Positions 1-15,658 of a stretch of DNA of 15,658 nt are shown piece after piece. The notes under the pieces were generated by a model. The model searched no databases, was not told where the DNA came from, and saw only the letters and a program-made list of their open reading frames with translations. How positions within the stretch are numbered: position 1 is the first letter of the stretch; each line of letters opens with the position of its first letter. Origin of the DNA: a virus (taxonomy: Duplodnaviria > Heunggongvirae > Uroviricota > Caudoviricetes); IMG/VR virus record IMGVR_UViG_2721755662_000003; one strand, written 5' to 3'. Made by a program: the position numbers and the translations under genes.

Positions 1-1218
1 ATGAACAAACTGAGCGATACCTTGCTAAGGAAACTTCATGGTAAGCCAGCGGAGAAAAACACGTTTTATAGTGATGGCGGAAACCTGAGCGTGAAATATT
101 TAACATCAGGGAAATTGACCTGGTATTTCACATACAGGGCCGGAACGGGAAGGGAGACACGACCCGAACGCATTAAGCTGGGAAGTTATCCTGATCTGAG
201 CCTGAAAGCAGCCAGGGAAAAAGCCGCACAGTGTCGCACATGGCTGGCTGAGGGGAAAAATCCACGTCATGAGATGAATTACACCGTACAGGAAGCGTTA
301 AAGCCCGTAACGGTTGGCGATGCGCTCACCTACTGGCTTGAGTATTACGTAAAGGAAAACCGCGTGGATTATATCGCCCTGAAAAGGCGACTTAATAATC
401 ACGTAATACAGCAGATTGGTGCTATGCCGCTGGATAAATGCGAGCTACGGCACTGGCTGGCCTGTTTTGACCAGGTGGCAAAGCGAACGCCTGTTACTGC
501 CGGATTCGTGCTACAGGCGTGCAAACAGGCGCTTAAGTTCTGCCGTAGGCGGCGCTATGCAATCAGCAACGTTCTGGACGATCTGAACGTTGCGGACGTT
601 GGGAAAAAACCGGATATAAGCGAACGTGTCTTAAGTAACAAAGAACTTGGCGAATTATTGCAGGCACTGGACAAAAAAATATTCTCCCCTTACTACGTCG
701 CGTTAATCCGCCTCCTGATTGTCTTCGGAGCCAGAACGGTAGAACTGAGGTTATCGGAGATCGGGGAGTGGGATTTTACGGAAATGCTATGGACCGTTCC
801 GAAGGAGCACAGCAAAACGAAGGTCGCAATATTCCGGCCCATACCGGAAGCGATCCTGCCGTTCGTCACGCAGCTGGTGGAGCAGAACAGGCACACGGGC
901 TTATTGCTGGGGGAAGTGAAACAGGAGGCCAGCGTATCGCAGTATGGAAGATTAGCGCACAGGAGGCTTAATCACCCTCACTGGTCACTGCATGACATCC
1001 GGCGCACCTTTACAACCATGCTGAACGATTTAGGCGTTGATCCGCATGTCGTGGAGCAGCTTACAGGCCACCAGATGCCAGGAATGCAGCGAGTTTATAA
1101 TCATTCCCGTTATCTGGATGCGAAACGCAATGCGCTGGATATGTGGACGGAGCGGTTAGGGATACTGGCGGGAACACATGAAAACGTAACCACGCTACCC
1201 GTAGCCAGAAGAAAATAA
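1..1218 (+). CDS. int: Tyrosine recombinase, P4-family integrase (405 aa)
   Basis: N-terminal arm-binding-like region (LSDTLLRKL..GKP..YSDGGNLSVKY..WYFTYR..IKLGSYPDLSLKAAREKA) and C-terminal catalytic region with HDIRRTF...GHQ...RVYNHSRY (His/Arg/Tyr pattern of tyrosine recombinases); ORF starts at window position 1. Confidence 0.9.
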   Translation: MNKLSDTLLRKLHGKPAEKNTFYSDGGNLSVKYLTSGKLTWYFTYRAGTGRETRPERIKLGSYPDLSLKAAREKAAQCRTWLAEGKNPRHEMNYTVQEALKPVTVGDALTYWLEYYVKENRVDYIALKRRLNNHVIQQIGAMPLDKCELRHWLACFDQVAKRTPVTAGFVLQACKQALKFCRRRRYAISNVLDDLNVADVGKKPDISERVLSNKELGELLQALDKKIFSPYYVALIRLLIVFGARTVELRLSEIGEWDFTEMLWTVPKEHSKTKVAIFRPIPEAILPFVTQLVEQNRHTGLLLGEVKQEASVSQYGRLAHRRLNHPHWSLHDIRRTFTTMLNDLGVDPHVVEQLTGHQMPGMQRVYNHSRYLDAKRNALDMWTERLGILAGTHENVTTLPVARRK

Positions 1219-1235: not shown

Positions 1236-1251
1236 CAGTATGCGCATACTG
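1236..1251. promoter_or_regulatory. Perfect 16-bp palindrome CAGTATGCGCATACTG just downstream of int stop
   Basis: Read directly: cagtatgc/gcatactg is self-complementary; preceded by two T-runs; operator-like or hairpin. Confidence 0.4.
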
Positions 1252-1266
1252 GATATGCGAACAGAT

Positions 1267-1310
1267 ACAACGTGCAACAATGAGCAACAATGTGGAACAA
1301 CTACGAACAA
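1267..1310 (-). repeat. Five direct repeats of ACAA (minus-strand TTGT, mostly TTGTTC/G) with exact 10-bp phasing
   Basis: atACAA cgtgcaACAA tgagcaACAA tgtggaACAA ctacgaACAA at 1267,1277,1287,1297,1307; same motif as arrays at 7899-7949 and 15383-15408. Confidence 0.65.
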
Positions 1311-1432: not shown

Positions 1433-1583
1433 TGTATTAACATGAATTTAAAAGATTTTATTCTTACTGTTTCATTTTCTGTAAATCATACATCCTCAGT
1501 ATTTGCCATTCATCACTCTAGCGGGAACAATACGACACAATAAGACACCTGATGACTCTTTAAGAAACGAAAGGGGGGCAATA

Positions 1584-1772
1584 GTGTTAAGCACTGATCG
1601 GTTTATACGTGAAAAAGAATGCGAAAAACTAACCGGCCTTAGCCGTACGTGTCGCTACCGCCTGGAAAAGGCCGGACAATTCCCATCACGTCGTAAACTT
1701 GGCGGTCGTTCCGTTGGCTGGTCTTTATCCGAGGTTCTGGCCTGGAAGGATAGCTGCAAGGCAGTTCATTAA
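1584..1772 (+). CDS. alpA: AlpA/Vis-family winged-helix regulator/excisionase (about 62 aa from GTG 1584; maximal ORF from ATG 1503)
   Basis: Sequence LSTDRFIREKECEKLTGLSRTCRYRLEKAGQFPSRRKLGGRSVGWSLSEVLAWKD matches the AlpA pattern; RBS aagggggg 5 nt upstream of GTG 1584. Confidence 0.85.
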   Translation: MLSTDRFIREKECEKLTGLSRTCRYRLEKAGQFPSRRKLGGRSVGWSLSEVLAWKDSCKAVH

Positions 1773-7902: not shown

Positions 7903-7949
7903 CATGTTTTGTAAATTATTTGTTCGTGGTTGTTCCACGTTGTTCACTG
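7899..7949 (+). repeat. Five 10/11-bp-phased TTGT repeats (ttgtca, ttgtaa, ttgttc, ttgttc, ttgttc) upstream of the capsid operon
   Basis: TTGT at 7899, 7909, 7920, 7930, 7940; same motif as 1267-1310 (opposite strand) and 15383-15408. Confidence 0.65.
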
Positions 7950-12855: not shown

Positions 12856-14500
12856 GTACGCAGAAGACGTAAAAACGGGCAAAATTCCGGCCTGTAAACG
12901 GCTGAAACAGGCCGTTAAACGGTACTTTTCGGACCTTAAAAGCCCCCTTTACACGTTCGATCGTGAGGTTGTGGAGCGGTTTATTGCCTTTTCCAGGGTG
13001 TGCCCGCACGTAAAAGGACCGATGCGTGGCAGACCCATTGAGCTGGAGCCGTGGCAGCAGTTCGCCTTTGCGTGCATCCTCGGCTTTAAGGTTAAGGCCA
13101 CCGGACGGCGCAAATACACGAGCGCCTTTATCGAAGTGCCGCGCAAAAATGCGAAATCCACGACCGCCGCGATTCTGGCTAACTGGTTTCTGATTATGGA
13201 GAACGGTCAGCAGGATATCTACACCGCAGCGGTGAGCCGTGACCAGGCGCGGATCGTCTTTGATGATGCGCGTCAGATGTGCCTTTTATCCCGACCGTTA
13301 CGCAGGCGGGTGAATATTCAGGCGCATAAGGTGATACACCCGAAAAGCAACAGCCTGTTAAAGCCGCTGGCAGCAAAAGCGGCAACCATCGAGGGAACAA
13401 ACCCCAGCCTTTCCATCGTGGACGAATACCACTTGCACCCCGATAACGGCGTTTATTCCGCGCTTGAGCTGGGGATGGGCGCACGTCCCGAAGGGCTGTT
13501 ATTTGCCATTACCACATCAGGCAGCAACGTCGTTTCAGCCTGTAAGCAGCACTATGATTATTGCTGCCAGATCCTGGACGGCGAAGAGGTTAACGATTCA
13601 ATTTTTGTACTGATTTACGAACTGGACGACGAAAACGAGGTTGATGATCCGGCGATGTGGATAAAGGCGAACCCTAATATTGATGTTTCCGTCGATCGTG
13701 AAAAACTGGCCTCAACCATCCAGAAAGCGCGGGGTATTCCGTCGCAGTGGGTGGAGATGATGACAAAGCGATTTAATATCTGGTGCCAGGGGGCTACCCC
13801 GTGGATGGGTAACGGCGCATGGGCTGAGTGTGCCGGAACGTTCACGGAGGAAGATTTACACGGCCAGGAGTGTTACGCGGGGCTGGACTTATCATCAACC
13901 AGCGATATTTCCAGCGTGTGCTATGCCTTTCCGGTCGGTAAAACCATTATGCTGGTTTCCCGTCACTATCTGCCGGAATTTCAGCTACAGAACCCCGCCA
14001 ATAAAAACCGCGCCATCTATCGTCAGTGGGCTAAAGCAGGCTGGATACGCACAACGCCTGGCGACTGCATTGATTACGACCGGATCAGAGATGACATCAT
14101 GCAGGACGCGGAGAAATTTAATATCAGGCTGGTGGGCTTTGATACGTGGAACGCCACGCATCTCAGAACGCAATTACAGGGGGCAGGTTTTGAGGTGGAG
14201 CCGTTCCCGCAAACCTACCTCAGATTCAGTCCGGCGGCGAAATCGTTCGAAGTTTTTGTTAACCGCAGGGTGATTGTGCATCGTGGCGATCCGGTGTTGT
14301 CCTGGTCGATGAGTAACGTCGTGATGCAGAGTGACGCGAACGCCAATATCAAGCCGAACAAGAAAAAATCACCGAACAAGATAGACCCGAGCGTGGCGGC
14401 GCTGATGGCGTTTGGTACATTCCAGGCAGAGCATGAGGATTTTGCTTTTGATATAAGCGACAGCCACCGCCAGAAACTGGAAGAATTTAGCGGGGTGTAA
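12839..14500 (+). CDS. terL: Terminase large subunit (553 aa)
   Basis: N-terminal ATPase region then nuclease region, typical TerL layout; overlaps TerS; size typical. Confidence 0.9.
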   Translation: MTAWNKYAEDVKTGKIPACKRLKQAVKRYFSDLKSPLYTFDREVVERFIAFSRVCPHVKGPMRGRPIELEPWQQFAFACILGFKVKATGRRKYTSAFIEVPRKNAKSTTAAILANWFLIMENGQQDIYTAAVSRDQARIVFDDARQMCLLSRPLRRRVNIQAHKVIHPKSNSLLKPLAAKAATIEGTNPSLSIVDEYHLHPDNGVYSALELGMGARPEGLLFAITTSGSNVVSACKQHYDYCCQILDGEEVNDSIFVLIYELDDENEVDDPAMWIKANPNIDVSVDREKLASTIQKARGIPSQWVEMMTKRFNIWCQGATPWMGNGAWAECAGTFTEEDLHGQECYAGLDLSSTSDISSVCYAFPVGKTIMLVSRHYLPEFQLQNPANKNRAIYRQWAKAGWIRTTPGDCIDYDRIRDDIMQDAEKFNIRLVGFDTWNATHLRTQLQGAGFEVEPFPQTYLRFSPAAKSFEVFVNRRVIVHRGDPVLSWSMSNVVMQSDANANIKPNKKKSPNKIDPSVAALMAFGTFQAEHEDFAFDISDSHRQKLEEFSGV

Positions 14501-14513
14501 TGAGGTCAGCAGC

Positions 14514-14795
14514 ATGACAGAAGCCGAAATAACGGGATTAATCCGCCGCGTTGCCGGAATCAGCCAGCAGGCTGACGAACAGGCCACGCAGCCGGACAGC
14601 GTGACAGCCGAAAACTATGCGCGTGTTGTTGCTGAGGTGATGCGCCGTGATGGTATAGAACTTAATGGCGTGGATATGCGCAACATACGAACCAGAGTTC
14701 TTGAGTTGCTGGCCTACCGTCGCCGCGTGGAGATGTATCGGGAGAAGGAGAAAATAACGTACCACTGGAAGAAGCCGGAGCGGTTGCGGCGGTAA
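14514..14795 (+). CDS. Hypothetical protein (93 aa) after terL
   Basis: ORF track; Arg-rich C-terminus; no recognised family. Confidence 0.45.
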   Translation: MTEAEITGLIRRVAGISQQADEQATQPDSVTAENYARVVAEVMRRDGIELNGVDMRNIRTRVLELLAYRRRVEMYREKEKITYHWKKPERLRR

Positions 14796-14957
14796 CTGGT
14801 TGATATTCCCGACGGCCCAAAAATGGGTTGGCTACACCCCTCACAACTACGACATTTTCGCAGTTTAATTAATGGTCAGCTTAATCGCTAACCCGCTGAT
14901 ATTTTCGGAAACCTCAATTTGAGGAAGTCGGCGCGGTAACTCGCTGAACTTTAAGCA

Positions 14958-15313
14958 AAGCGCAAAATTGCGCTTGCTGAATAATCATTATGATTACGCA
15001 GATGATTAAGGAATGACCGAAGGCGGAAATTCGCCTGTGGTTAATGGGGGAGTTGCAGATCTGCAACTCGACCATGAAACTACGGAAACTACCCGTAGTT
15101 TGGGTAGTAAGAGTAACACCCAGATTTTGGGGCTTACTCGTGATACCCAAATTTGGGGTATCAGTGGCAACCATAACGACTTTCGTTACGGTTGATGCTT
15201 TTACCCCATTGGGGGAAAGGTATTACGATAATCATAACACCTACCGAACAGGTAAAGCCCACCAGCCTGATTAACGTTTAACCGGAAAAAAATTCCGGTA
15301 GGTGGGGATCCCC
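14958..15313. promoter_or_regulatory. Non-coding, palindrome-dense right arm
   Basis: AAGCGCAAAATTGCGCTT (14958-14975); TAATCATtATGATTA (14982-14996); perfect 18-bp AGTTGCAGATCTGCAACT (15051-15068); GAAACTAC x2 and 8-bp stem AACTACGG/CCGTAGTT (15076-15100); GATACCCAAATTTGGGGTATC (15142-15162); CCGGAA-aaaaa-TTCCGG (15282-15298); GGGGATCCCC (15304-15313). Confidence 0.4.
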
Positions 15314-15382
15314 ATATCGACATTAACGCCCCTCATGAATTGGTGTGCTTCCCCCTGGAAAGATGATCCGCCTGTATATTTC

Positions 15383-15447
15383 TTGTGTCTATTTGTTCCA
15401 CGTTGTTTCATACAGTGCACCGAACGGTGTAGTCACTGGTGTAGTCA
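15383..15447 (+). repeat. att-proximal direct repeats: TTGTGT/TTGTTC/TTGTTT (15383, 15394, 15403) and GGTGTAGTCA x2 (15426-15435, 15438-15447)
   Basis: Read directly; lies roughly 70-140 bp inside the inferred right junction, where arm-type and Xis-type sites usually sit. Confidence 0.45.
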
Positions 15448-15493
15448 TTTTGCGATTTTTGGCACTTTTTGCGGTGTTAATTATTTAATTAAA

Positions 15494-15658
15494 TCAATGT
15501 GTTATGCGAAATAAGTTATATATAACAGCAATAAATAATGCGAGAATAAACGGCACGATGATCTCGGCGGCAAAACGGATACCGCAGAGAATAATGACCA
15601 GCATTCCCAACATAATGACGATTTTTAGGCCATTGAGCGTGATGATCGGCTTTGCCAT
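15494..15658 (-). pseudogene. tqsA: Truncated 5' fragment of a tqsA (ydgG)-like AI-2 exporter gene: 46 host-like codons then 8 island-derived codons and stop
   Basis: Minus-strand translation [46 protein letters not shown] then YNLFRITH-stop; the first 46 residues match my recollection of the E. coli TqsA N-terminus. Confidence 0.55.

What the first reader, a model, noticed from the sequence alone, without database searches (positions are those of the whole stretch)
15383..15447. att-proximal repeats: TTGTT triplet and duplicated GGTGTAGTCA at the right end
About 70-140 bp inside the inferred right junction there are three TTGT(G/T)(T/C) units with about 10-bp spacing and two copies of GGTGTAGTCA 12 bp apart. 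In lambdoid and P4-type systems, arm-type integrase sites and excisionase sites are short direct repeats at this distance from the core. The TTGTT units match the arrays at the two promoter-proximal sites, consistent with one protein serving as both excisionase and transcription factor.
Basis: inference. Interest (0 to 1): 0.55.

Follow-up and report, generated by a model that had tools for sequence, protein, structure and literature searches.

The report
Satellite attachment-site arm: integrase and AlpA sites
The repeats are real and form one arm of the attachment site of a 15.7-kb phage satellite inserted in the E. coli tqsA gene; they most likely bind its integrase and its AlpA regulator/excisionase, which is an ordinary kind of feature but gives testable candidate AlpA operators for this satellite family.

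Summary
TTGTGT, TTGTTC and TTGTTT start at 15383, 15393 and 15403. GGTGTAGTCA lies at 15426-35 and 15438-47. All sit 75-139 bp inside the right junction, whose core is ATAACAGCA at 15522-30.

The window is a capsid-forming PICI-like satellite of 15,717 bp that splits tqsA. Just upstream of int, outside the window, attL carries the same module in the same orientation: four TTGT units at 10-bp spacing and the identical 22-mer.

TTGT arrays occur only at five places in 36.6 kb, all inside the element: twice in the attL arm, once in the attR arm, once downstream of int and once upstream of the capsid operon. The decamer doublet occurs only on the two arms. It covaries with the integrase N-terminal arm-binding domain, not with AlpA. 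The array flavour shifts with the AlpA variant.

The geometry matches the doubled attP motif reported for helper-embedded PICIs (-79/+133 bp here, -81/+132 there) with a different sequence. A circular IMG/VR contig carries the predicted attP.

Best reading: decamers are Int arm-type sites; TTGT arrays are AlpA (RDF and activator) operators; an IHF consensus lies between arm and core. Binding is inferred, not shown. This is a new member of a known kind, of moderate interest.

The parts
15383..15412 (+). P-arm (attR) array of three 10-bp-phased units, TTGTGTCTAT, TTGTTCCACG and TTGTTTCATA. A degenerate fourth unit, CAGTGC, follows at 15413. Proposed AlpA (RDF/activator) operator array.
   Evidence: The array is conserved at the same place in 12 related elements at 6 integration sites. 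It is the homologue of the 4-unit array in the attL arm.
15426..15447 (+). Doubled decamer GGTGTAGTCAcTGGTGTAGTCA with a 12-bp period. Proposed pair of Int arm-type sites in the P arm.
   Evidence: the only exact copies lie here and at attL. Its variant (GTCACT or GTTAAT) follows the Int N-domain variant and not AlpA. The position, -100 to -79 from the core centre, matches the HE-PICI doubled motif.
15448..15475 (+). Three T4-5 tracts phased at 9-10 bp (TTTTGCGA, TTTTTGGCA, TTTTTGCGG). Likely intrinsically curved spacer DNA.
   Evidence: Read directly from the sequence. family D1 flags part of it. The function is inferred.
15492..15504 (+). Perfect IHF consensus AATCAATGTGTTA (WATCAANNNNTTR), preceded by an A/T-rich tract, between the arm sites and the core.
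   Evidence: one of only 3 perfect matches in 36.6 kb. The motif is kept in the roxA-, allE- and abgR-type elements and in the circular contig L143. Binding was not tested.
15522..15530 (.). Common core ATAACAGCA shared by attL, attR and attB. The crossover region lies within it.
   Evidence: Alignment with the empty K-12 tqsA site. The attL copy is at L001 2806-2814. The attP junction is found in a circular IMG/VR contig.
15531..15658 (-). 5' fragment of the host gene tqsA (AI-2 exporter), truncated by the insertion.
   Evidence: RefSeq annotation of L001 and alignment to K-12.
1267..1310 (-). Five-unit TTGT array at 10-bp phase, inverted relative to the arm arrays. It lies just after the int stop codon and about 270 bp upstream of alpA.
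   Evidence: It is conserved in all AlpA-v1 elements.
1521..1540 (-). Two further TTGT units (TTGTGTCGTA, TTGTTCCCGC). They overlap the -10 of a predicted alpA promoter (TTGCCA-17-AACAAT).
   Evidence: Sequence and promoter scan. Weak evidence.
1584..1772 (+). alpA, encoding a 62-aa AlpA-family winged-HTH protein. Candidate binder of the TTGT arrays.
   Evidence: Pfam PF05930, E=5e-17. PHROG 2790, 'excisionase and transcriptional regulator'. PDB 8c3t, AlpA-family protein, E=2e-6.
1..1218 (+). int, a tyrosine integrase. The annotated GTG start lies 12 nt upstream of the window. Residues 8-95 form the arm-DNA-binding domain.
   Evidence: Pfam PF13356, E=1.4e-18, and PF00589. PDB 3jtz, the N-domain of a CP4-like integrase.
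7920..7949 (+). Three-unit array (TTGTTCGTGG, TTGTTCCACG, TTGTTCACTG). It lies 24 bp after the perC terminator and 211 bp upstream of the capsid ATG. Proposed AlpA-dependent late-operon operator.
   Evidence: The array is present in cf-PICI relatives, including L007, which lacks PerC.

Best explanation
Positions 15383-15447 are the protein-binding part of the P arm of the attachment site of a tqsA-integrating, capsid-forming PICI-like satellite.

The reconstructed attP reads as follows, in bp from the core centre:
- TTGT array x3: -143 to -114
- GGTGTAGTCA x2: -100 to -79
- phased T-tracts
- IHF consensus: -34 to -22
- core ATAACAGCA
- TGTTT units and an IHF-like site
- TTGT array x4: +90 to +129
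- GGTGTAGTCA x2: +133 to +154
- int start codon: +180

Inferred mechanism:
- The four decamers are arm-type sites. Each is held by the N-terminal arm-binding domain of one protomer of the Int tetramer, while the C-terminal domains act at the core. IHF and the curved spacer fold the arms back onto the core.
- The 10-bp-phased TTGT units are operators for AlpA. AlpA binds head to tail, one protomer per helical turn, as other winged-helix RDFs do. On the arms it would bend the DNA next to the Int sites and favour the excisive attL x attR synapse.
- The same operators upstream of alpA and of the capsid/packaging operon would let AlpA activate its own gene and the late genes. Excision and gene expression would then be switched on together when a helper phage induces alpA.
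- The attL module also lies 25-90 bp upstream of int, so Int and AlpA binding probably also modulates int transcription, as in P4.

Shown here: the sequence architecture, its conservation, the covariation and the existence of the excised attP. Inferred: which protein binds which repeat, and all effects on recombination and transcription.
For: (1) The same module is present on both arms in direct orientation, with conservation concentrated in the motifs.

(2) The motif distributions differ. The decamers occur only on the arms. The TTGT arrays occur on both arms and at two regulatory gaps, and nowhere else in 36.6 kb.

(3) The architecture is conserved in 12 E. coli/Shigella elements at 6 integration sites. 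The gap between the doublets is a constant 212 bp in the three site types where the core could be located unambiguously (tqsA, roxA and abgR), while the core and the core-proximal DNA change.

(4) There is a double dissociation.
- Elements with an identical AlpA protein (WP_000953272.1) carry GTCACT decamers with the tqsA-type Int, and GTTAAT decamers with the roxA-type Int.
- 14 of 19 type-specific Int substitutions lie in residues 5-56 of the arm-binding domain (p=2.4e-6).
- Elements with a B-type Int N-domain but a 55%-identical AlpA keep GGTGTAGTYAAT. Their array units shift to TTGTTCG.

(5) Relatives in Serratia, Erwinia, Kosakonia, Raoultella and Phytobacter (Int 53-57% identical) keep a (G)TGTAGTC doublet at 12-bp period, preceded by 10-bp-phased (T)GTTC/GTTT-type units (weakest in the Serratia locus L014). 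Xenorhabdus relatives and HE-PICIs have other doublets at the same place.

(6) Int has PF13356. AlpA has PF05930 and matches a PHROG annotated 'excisionase and transcriptional regulator'.

(7) Literature.
- RDF sites are direct repeats one helix turn apart, and Apl, Cox and Vis are dual RDF/regulators (PMC7498355).
- A doubled attP motif at -81/+132 in HE-PICIs was proposed to bind the four Int arm domains (PMC10111431).

(8) A circular IMG/VR contig carries exactly the predicted attP.

(9) PerC is absent from L007 and L010, yet the arrays persist.
Against: No binding data exist for these sites.

The Int/decamer covariation rests on essentially one switch within E. coli plus deeper clade differences. 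The arms and the int 5' end are contiguous in attP, so co-inheritance of a recombination block is a partial alternative. Against that, the changes are confined to the decamers on the attR side.

The AlpA/array covariation is modest: mainly position 7, C to G.

RDF sites on both arms, and distal to the Int sites on the P arm, are unlike lambda.

Fillol-Salom et al. found no AlpA effect on Pint in EcCICFT073.

No consensus sigma-70 promoter was found next to the arm arrays or the capsid array. HE-PICIs show no TTGT arrays.
Confidence: 0.7

Rival explanations
1. The assignment is the other way round. The 10-bp-phased TTGT units are the Int arm-type sites (like lambda P'1-P'3), and the doubled decamer is the AlpA/RDF site (like X1/X2).
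For: Tandem arm-type sites at about 10-11-bp spacing are known from lambda (own knowledge). A two-copy tandem site is also typical of RDFs. PMC10111431 left open that AlpA binds the doubled motif. P4 Int autoregulates its promoter, so Int binding near promoters is not absurd.
Against: The decamer variant follows the Int N-domain while AlpA stays identical. The decamer stays the same when AlpA changes to a 55%-identical variant. Four decamers fit an Int tetramer. TTGT arrays upstream of the capsid operon and of alpA suit a transcription factor, and AlpA is the known autoactivator. The decamer is absent from all promoter regions.
Confidence: 0.1
2. The decamers are Int arm sites, but the TTGT arrays are bound by something other than AlpA. 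Candidates are another satellite protein, a host nucleoid protein, or the still-unknown helper-phage factor that switches on alpA.
For: The helper-encoded inducer of alpA transcription is unidentified (PMC6092414), and arrays lie upstream of alpA. The AlpA/array covariation is only modest. Several small conserved proteins of unknown function are present: phrog_1561, phrog_1231 and phrog_285.
Against: Arrays on both att arms fit an RDF, and AlpA is the only RDF-family protein encoded. AlpA overexpression alone induces excision and autoactivation without a helper. PerC is dispensable for array presence. The arrays are conserved with alpA across genera.
Confidence: 0.15
3. The two modules are a sequence duplication without present function, for example a relic of an old rearrangement, and the short repeats are incidental.
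For: The modules are 76% identical over 76 nt, as a decaying duplication might be.
Against: Identity is 36/38 at motif positions against 22/38 elsewhere. The module is conserved at 6 integration sites and in 5 other genera. The spacing to the core is fixed. The decamers changed in parallel on both arms.
Confidence: 0.03

Closest known systems
Doubled attP motif of helper-embedded PICIs (tgTGTATTGCantgTGTATTGCa; PMC10111431)
   Same: Both are tandem doublets with a 12-bp period, in two co-oriented copies per attP. One ends about 80 bp upstream of the attP centre and one starts about 132 bp downstream (here -79 and +133). The downstream copy sits just upstream of int. The Ints share the same N-terminal family signature.
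   Different: The motif sequence differs (GGTGTAGTYA here). The target is a chromosomal gene (tqsA), not a prophage late gene. That paper reported the motif as absent from other PICIs and did not decide between Int and AlpA. Here 10-bp TTGT arrays accompany the doublets, and none is evident in the HE-PICIs examined.
Lambda attP (Int arm-type sites P1, P2, P'1-3; Xis X1-X1.5-X2; IHF H1, H2, H')
   Same: Both have a heterobivalent Int with an N-terminal arm-binding domain, arm repeats on both sides of a short core, IHF-type sites between arm and core, and an RDF binding phased direct repeats next to an Int arm site (general knowledge; for the RDF rule).
   Different: There are only 2+2 arm sites, all co-oriented. 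The proposed RDF arrays lie on both arms, whereas lambda has them on the P arm only. The same operators also occur at promoters. The Int arm domain belongs to a different Pfam family (PF13356).
Dual-purpose RDF/regulators: 186 Apl, P2 Cox, P4 Vis
   Same: In each, a small DNA-binding protein binds direct repeats one helix turn apart, both at att and at promoters, coupling excision with transcription control (PMC7498355). P4 Vis is an AlpA-family protein, and P4 Pint is controlled by Int and Vis and carries an IHF site.
   Different: Apl and Cox repress early promoters, whereas PICI AlpA is an activator. The operator sequence differs. Arrays here lie on both arms.
E. coli PICIs and cf-PICIs (EcCICFT073, EcCIEDL933)
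   Same: The gene order is the same: int, alpA, icd-like, primase, ssb, perC, then HK97-type capsid, protease, portal, HNH, TerS and TerL. The size is about 15 kb. AlpA is essential for induction of those elements.
   Different: Those papers, as far as I could read them, do not define AlpA operators or Int arm sites. Whether this element is identical to a named prototype was not established.

Membership tests
Arm-type sites of a heterobivalent tyrosine integrase attP | The integrase carries a separate N-terminal arm-DNA-binding domain. | tested here: met
   PF13356 Arm-DNA-bind_3 covers residues 8-95, E=1.4e-18. PDB 3jtz, the N-domain of a CP4-like integrase, matches at E=1.5e-5.
Arm-type sites of a heterobivalent tyrosine integrase attP | Repeats distinct from the core sequence lie on both arms, tens to about 150 bp from the crossover. 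| tested here: met
   The doublets lie at -100 to -79 and at +133 to +154. Exact copies occur nowhere else in 36.6 kb.
Arm-type sites of a heterobivalent tyrosine integrase attP | The site sequence co-varies with the arm-binding domain. | tested here: met
   GTCACT goes with K36/Y37/L38/K42, and GTTAAT goes with R36/H37/S38/L42. Other doublets occur in the Xenorhabdus and HE-PICI clades. There are few independent events, and linkage is not fully excluded.
Arm-type sites of a heterobivalent tyrosine integrase attP | The Int N-domain binds the sites directly. | not testable with these tools
   This needs EMSA or footprinting.
RDF (excisionase) operator array | Direct repeats spaced one helical turn apart. 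| tested here: met
   The spacing is exactly 10 bp, with 3-5 units per array. TTGT is invariant in 30 of 30 distinct units. The rule comes from PMC7498355.
RDF (excisionase) operator array | The array lies in an att arm next to an Int arm-type site. | tested here: met
   The array ends 13 bp before the first decamer on both arms.
RDF (excisionase) operator array | The element encodes an RDF-family winged-helix protein. | tested here: met
   AlpA matches PF05930 (E=5e-17), PHROG 2790 and PDB 8c3t.
RDF (excisionase) operator array | The RDF binds and bends the array and is needed for excision. | not testable with these tools
   The only indirect support is that AlpA overexpression triggers excision of a related PICI.
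HE-PICI doubled attP motif (PMC10111431) | Two co-oriented tandem doublets lie about 81 bp upstream and about 132 bp downstream of the attP centre. | tested here: met
   The values here are -79 and +133. The gap between the doublets is 212 bp in three site types and in the circular contig L143.
HE-PICI doubled attP motif (PMC10111431) | The motif core is TGTATTGC. | tested here: not met
   Here the core is GGTGTAGT(C/T)A.
HE-PICI doubled attP motif (PMC10111431) | The element integrates in a prophage late gene. | tested here: not met
   It integrates in the chromosomal gene tqsA. Relatives integrate at roxA/phoQ, allE/allC, abgR/smrA, cspD/clpS and ISEc45.
Capsid-forming PICI | The element has int, alpA and a primase plus its own capsid, protease, portal, connector, HNH, TerS and TerL genes. 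It has no tail or lysis genes and is about 15 kb. | tested here: met
   RefSeq annotation of L001, Pfam hits and an element length of 15,717 bp.
Capsid-forming PICI | Induction and transfer depend on a helper phage. | not testable with these tools
   A related 11-kb element with the same attP and int occurs as a circular or concatemeric contig in IMG/VR. This is suggestive only.
IHF site | A match to WATCAANNNNTTR with an upstream A/T tract. | tested here: met
   Window 15492-15504 is a perfect match, one of 3 in 36.6 kb. Binding was not tested.

The most novel reading that the evidence does not exclude
The duplicated module (AlpA array followed by an Int doublet) on both arms defines a near-symmetric intasome, common to a large clade of Gram-negative PICI integrases. 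All four Int arm sites would be used in both directions, and directionality would be set solely by AlpA filaments on both arms. The same operators at PalpA and the late promoter would make AlpA a single switch that fires excision, autoactivation and capsid/packaging expression together. The arm sites could then be re-coded by swapping about 15 residues of the Int N-domain.
Probability: 0.3. Interest if true: 0.55.

Novelty: new member of a known kind. Interest (0 to 1): 0.4.

Why it matters
AlpA is the master switch of Gram-negative PICIs and cf-PICIs. The papers I could read do not define where it binds, and they disagree on whether it is an activator, an excisionase or both.

These arrays give a concrete candidate operator, consensus TTGTTCCACG at 10-bp phase, at the places where both activities would be exerted. 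That makes the dual-role question directly testable.

The results also extend the doubled attP motif, reported as unique to helper-embedded PICIs, to a general architecture of this integrase family. They add comparative evidence that the integrase arm domain reads the motif.

In practical terms, the data define the minimal attP (about 300 bp) and the arm-code residues needed to use or re-target these integrases. The insertion also inactivates the AI-2 exporter gene tqsA in about 195 of 5,426 complete E. coli genomes.

Tried and rejected
- Rfam search of 14500-15658 at E<=1 found nothing.
- tRNA scan found none, so this is not a tRNA-targeting element.
- Sigma-70 promoter scans near the arm arrays and the capsid array found no convincing promoter. 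The idea that the arm arrays are parts of promoters stays unsupported.
- PerC as the array binder is rejected, because L007 and L010 lack PerC and keep the arrays.
- The 93-aa conserved right-end protein as a known DNA binder: no Pfam hit and no relative in the PDB. The question is left open.
- Iterons or a replication origin: there are no TTGT arrays near the primase 3' region.
- Automatic core detection by longest common substring failed for L007 and L010, giving spurious matches. I did not use their distances.
- A literature search for the motif strings returned only unrelated primer sequences. The search for PDB 8c3t found no describing paper.
- One paper search failed on a term that was too short, and one script failed on a file name.
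- I did not run protein structure prediction or the large homology searches, because Pfam, PHROG and PDB sequence hits already settled the protein families.

Full report
**1. The observation**

- TTGTGT, TTGTTC and TTGTTT start at 15383, 15393 and 15403, at exactly 10-bp spacing.
- GGTGTAGTCA lies at 15426-35 and 15438-47, with a 12-bp period.

One search matched the right end of the window to 195 complete E. coli genomes. One search fetched one of them as L001 (E. coli FORC_069). Window position 1 equals L001 position 3002.

The window is an island that splits tqsA, the gene for the AI-2 exporter. I aligned attL, attR and the empty K-12 site.
- The common core is ATAACAGCA, at window 15522-30 and at L001 2806-14.
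- The element is 15,717 bp long.
- The repeats therefore lie 75-139 bp inside the right junction.

**2. Is it more than chance?**

- TTGT-N6-TTGT-N6-TTGT gives 7 overlapping hits in 36.6 kb, against none in 100 shuffles.
- An unbiased scan for any 4-mer repeated at least 3 times at 10-bp period returns 9 arrays. All are of the TTGT/TGTT/ACAA family and all lie inside the element. The shuffle mean is 0.58. Other periods return unrelated or no arrays.
- Exact GGTGTAGTCA occurs four times, two copies on each arm.

**3.

A 76-nt module just upstream of int (L001 2893-2968, outside the window) is a direct repeat of window 15376-15451.
- It has four TTGT units at 2900, 2910, 2920 and 2930.
- It carries the identical 22-mer GGTGTAGTCACTGGTGTAGTCA at 2943-64. 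The int GTG start is at 2990.
- Identity between the two modules is 22/22 in the doublet, 14/16 in the TTGT cores and 22/38 elsewhere. Selection therefore acts on the motifs, not on the whole stretch.

The other TTGT arrays are:
- window 1267-1310: minus strand, five units, directly after the int stop codon;
- window 7920-7949: plus strand, three units, 24 bp after the terminator that follows perC and 211 bp before the capsid ATG;
- window 1521-1540: two further units overlapping a predicted alpA promoter -10;
- L001 2828-2871: extra TGTTT units in the P' arm next to the core.

**4. What the element is**

RefSeq annotation and Pfam give the following genes:
- an integrase with an Arm-DNA-bind_3 domain (residues 8-95, E=1.4e-18; also PDB 3jtz);
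- a 62-aa AlpA-family protein (PF05930; PHROG 'excisionase and transcriptional regulator'; PDB 8c3t);
- Icd-like proteins, a D5-type primase, SSB and PerC;
- then an HK97-type capsid, protease, portal, connectors, HNH endonuclease, TerS and TerL.

That is the gene content of a capsid-forming PICI.

**5. Reconstructed attP**

Positions are in bp from the core centre.

| Feature | Position |
|---|---|
| TTGT array x3 | -143 to -114 |
| Decamer doublet | -100 to -79 |
| Three phased T-tracts | between the doublet and the IHF site |
| Perfect IHF consensus AATCAATGTGTTA | -34 to -22 |
| Core ATAACAGCA | centre |
| TGTTT units and an IHF-like TTATCAACAGATTTG | P' arm, next to the core |
| TTGT array x4 | +90 to +129 |
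| Decamer doublet | +133 to +154 |
| int start codon | +180 |

The IHF match is one of only 3 perfect matches in 36.6 kb.

This attP is not only a reconstruction. IMG/VR contig L143 is 11,098 bp long and has a 119-bp terminal direct repeat, so it represents a circular or concatemeric PICI of 10,979 bp. It carries exactly this junction and all the motifs, followed by the tqsA-type int.

**6. Comparative evidence**

I fetched twelve related E. coli/Shigella elements at six integration sites: tqsA, roxA/phoQ, allE/allC, abgR/smrA, ISEc45 and cspD/clpS.
- All keep the arrays and the doublets at the same places.
- The gap between the doublets is a constant 212 bp in the three site types where the core could be located (tqsA, roxA, abgR), while the core and the core-proximal 35 bp change with the target.

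The doublet variant follows the integrase, not AlpA.
- tqsA-type Ints go with GGTGTAGTCAcT. All other Ints go with GGTGTAGTTAAT or GTCAAT.
- L001, L003 and L004 encode the identical AlpA protein.
- 14 of the 19 residues that separate tqsA-type from other Ints lie in positions 5-56 of the arm-binding domain (Fisher p=2.4e-6).

The converse also holds. L012 and L013 have a B-type Int N-domain and keep GGTGTAGTYAAT. Their AlpA is only about 55% identical, and their array units become TTGTTCG, with position 7 G in all in-register units against C in 21 of 30 for AlpA v1.

This double dissociation is the main basis for assigning the decamers to Int and the arrays to AlpA.

Further away:
- Relatives from Serratia, Erwinia, Kosakonia, Raoultella and Phytobacter have Ints 53-57% identical and an AlpA homologue in each. 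They keep a (G)TGTAGTC doublet at 12-bp period, 25-35 bp upstream of int, preceded by 10-bp-phased (T)GTTC/GTTT-type units.
- Xenorhabdus relatives carry GTGGGGTAAtcgGTGGGGCAA at the same place.

PerC is absent from L007 and L010, which keep the arrays, so PerC is not the binder.

**7. Comparison with what is known**

The closest precedent is the doubled motif tgTGTATTGCantgTGTATTGCa of helper-embedded PICIs.
- It occurs as two co-oriented copies, 81±2 bp upstream and 132±2 bp downstream of the attP centre.
- It was proposed to bind the four arm domains of the Int tetramer, or AlpA.
- It was reported as absent from other PICIs (PMC10111431).

Our doublets have the same period and the same positions (-79 and +133) but another sequence. 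In HE-PICI contigs the downstream doublet also sits just upstream of an int with the same N-terminal family signature. The architecture is therefore general for this integrase family, and each subclade has its own arm code.

For the arrays, the known rule is that RDFs bind head to tail to direct repeats one helix turn apart. Apl, Cox and Vis act both at att and at promoters (PMC7498355). P4 Pint is controlled by Int and Vis and has an IHF site.

[quoted passage not shown] In PICMIs, AlpA is proposed to be an excisionase.

None of the papers I could read defines AlpA operators for E. coli PICIs. The motif strings appear in no relevant paper in the library.

**8. Mechanism, with its status**

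Shown here:
- the architecture, its conservation and the covariation;
- the existence of the excised attP.

Inferred:
- The four decamers hold the N-domains of the Int tetramer.
- IHF and the curved spacer fold the arms back onto the core.
- AlpA oligomerises on the TTGT arrays on both arms to favour the excisive synapse.
- AlpA acts on the arrays near alpA and the late operon to activate transcription.
- Int and AlpA binding upstream of int modulates int expression.

**9. Weak points**

- No binding data exist for these sites.
- There are few independent covariation events, and the arms are linked to the int 5' end in attP.
- RDF sites on both arms are unlike lambda.
- AlpA had no effect on Pint in EcCICFT073.
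- No good sigma-70 promoter lies next to the arrays.

**10. Verdict**

This is an ordinary kind of feature, a complex tyrosine-integrase attP with RDF operators. It is a new sequence member of the doubled-motif architecture already seen in HE-PICIs.

It adds two things: candidate AlpA operators and comparative evidence for who binds what. Interest is moderate, at 0.4.

Noticed in passing
window 15035-15215: This is a non-coding stretch of four consecutive hairpins with an exceptionally stable predicted fold. The plus strand gives -88.1 kcal/mol (z=-8.7) and the minus strand gives -77.6 kcal/mol (z=-9.2). There is no Rfam match. The stretch is present intact in L001, L005 and L012 and at 79% identity in L013, and only the last hairpin is present in several other relatives. 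A 3-sequence alignment shows 4 pairs with compensatory changes. It could be a structured RNA or a DNA-level signal.
   Followed up: partly
window 15522-15658 and L001 1908-2813: The satellite integrates inside the coding sequence of tqsA (AI-2 exporter), after about 46 codons, and does not restore the gene. RefSeq marks both fragments as pseudogenes. About 195 of 5,426 complete E. coli genomes carry this right junction.
   Followed up: partly
L143 (IMGVR_UViG_3300045988_152974), whole contig: An 11,098-bp IMG/VR contig with a 119-bp terminal direct repeat is a circular or concatemeric PICI of 10,979 bp. It carries the same tqsA-type int and the exact predicted attP, but a different and shorter late module (351-aa capsid-like gene, no portal or TerL). 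The same integration module is therefore shared between classical and capsid-forming satellites.
   Followed up: partly
window 1236-1251: A perfect 16-bp palindrome, CAGTATGCGCATACTG, lies between the int stop codon and the five-unit TTGT array. It is flanked by T-runs on the upstream side only, so it is not a canonical terminator on either strand. It may be a dimeric protein-binding site. L012 and L013 have a different inverted repeat at the same place.
   Followed up: no
window 14790-14951: Three copies of an 18-nt direct repeat (CGGTAACTGGTTGATATT and two 78% variants) lie at 14790, 14886 and 14934, just after the last gene (93 aa, phrog_1561, unknown function). The function is unknown.
   Followed up: no
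L001 2820-3002 (minus strand); window 15302-15514 (plus strand): RefSeq annotates a 60-aa 'hypothetical protein' (WP_001332680.1) running straight across the attL arm repeats. A 70-aa ORF likewise spans the attR arm in the window. Neither has a Pfam or PHROG hit. The conservation pattern follows the DNA motifs, so these are probably not genes.
   Followed up: partly
L004 15694-15770; L003 14369-15786: There are natural variants of the attL arm. L004 has lost one 12-bp decamer unit, leaving a single copy. In O157:H7 strain FRIK2533 (L003) an IS3-family element separates the attL arm from int. Both could impair excision or int regulation and would be ready-made natural mutants.
   Followed up: no
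L001 2828-2871 (P' arm, outside the window): Additional TGTTT/TGTGC units at about 10-bp phase (2828, 2838, 2848, 2858, 2867) tile the P' arm from +18 to +65 next to the core. Nearly the whole arm between the core and the Int doublet is therefore made of TGT-type units.
   Followed up: no
L062 3945-3974: A helper-embedded PICI has three exact 10-bp-phased TTTTTCGTAG units about 1 kb downstream of its alpA. It has no TTGT arrays, and its AlpA has a different recognition helix. This may be the equivalent operator array of that AlpA subfamily.
   Followed up: no
L014-L018, directly downstream of int: In the Serratia, Erwinia, Kosakonia, Raoultella and Phytobacter relatives, an ORF starts at or just after the int stop codon and separates int from alpA. 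This resembles the 'integrase-overlapping gene' described for Vibrio PICMIs (PMC10803314).
   Followed up: no
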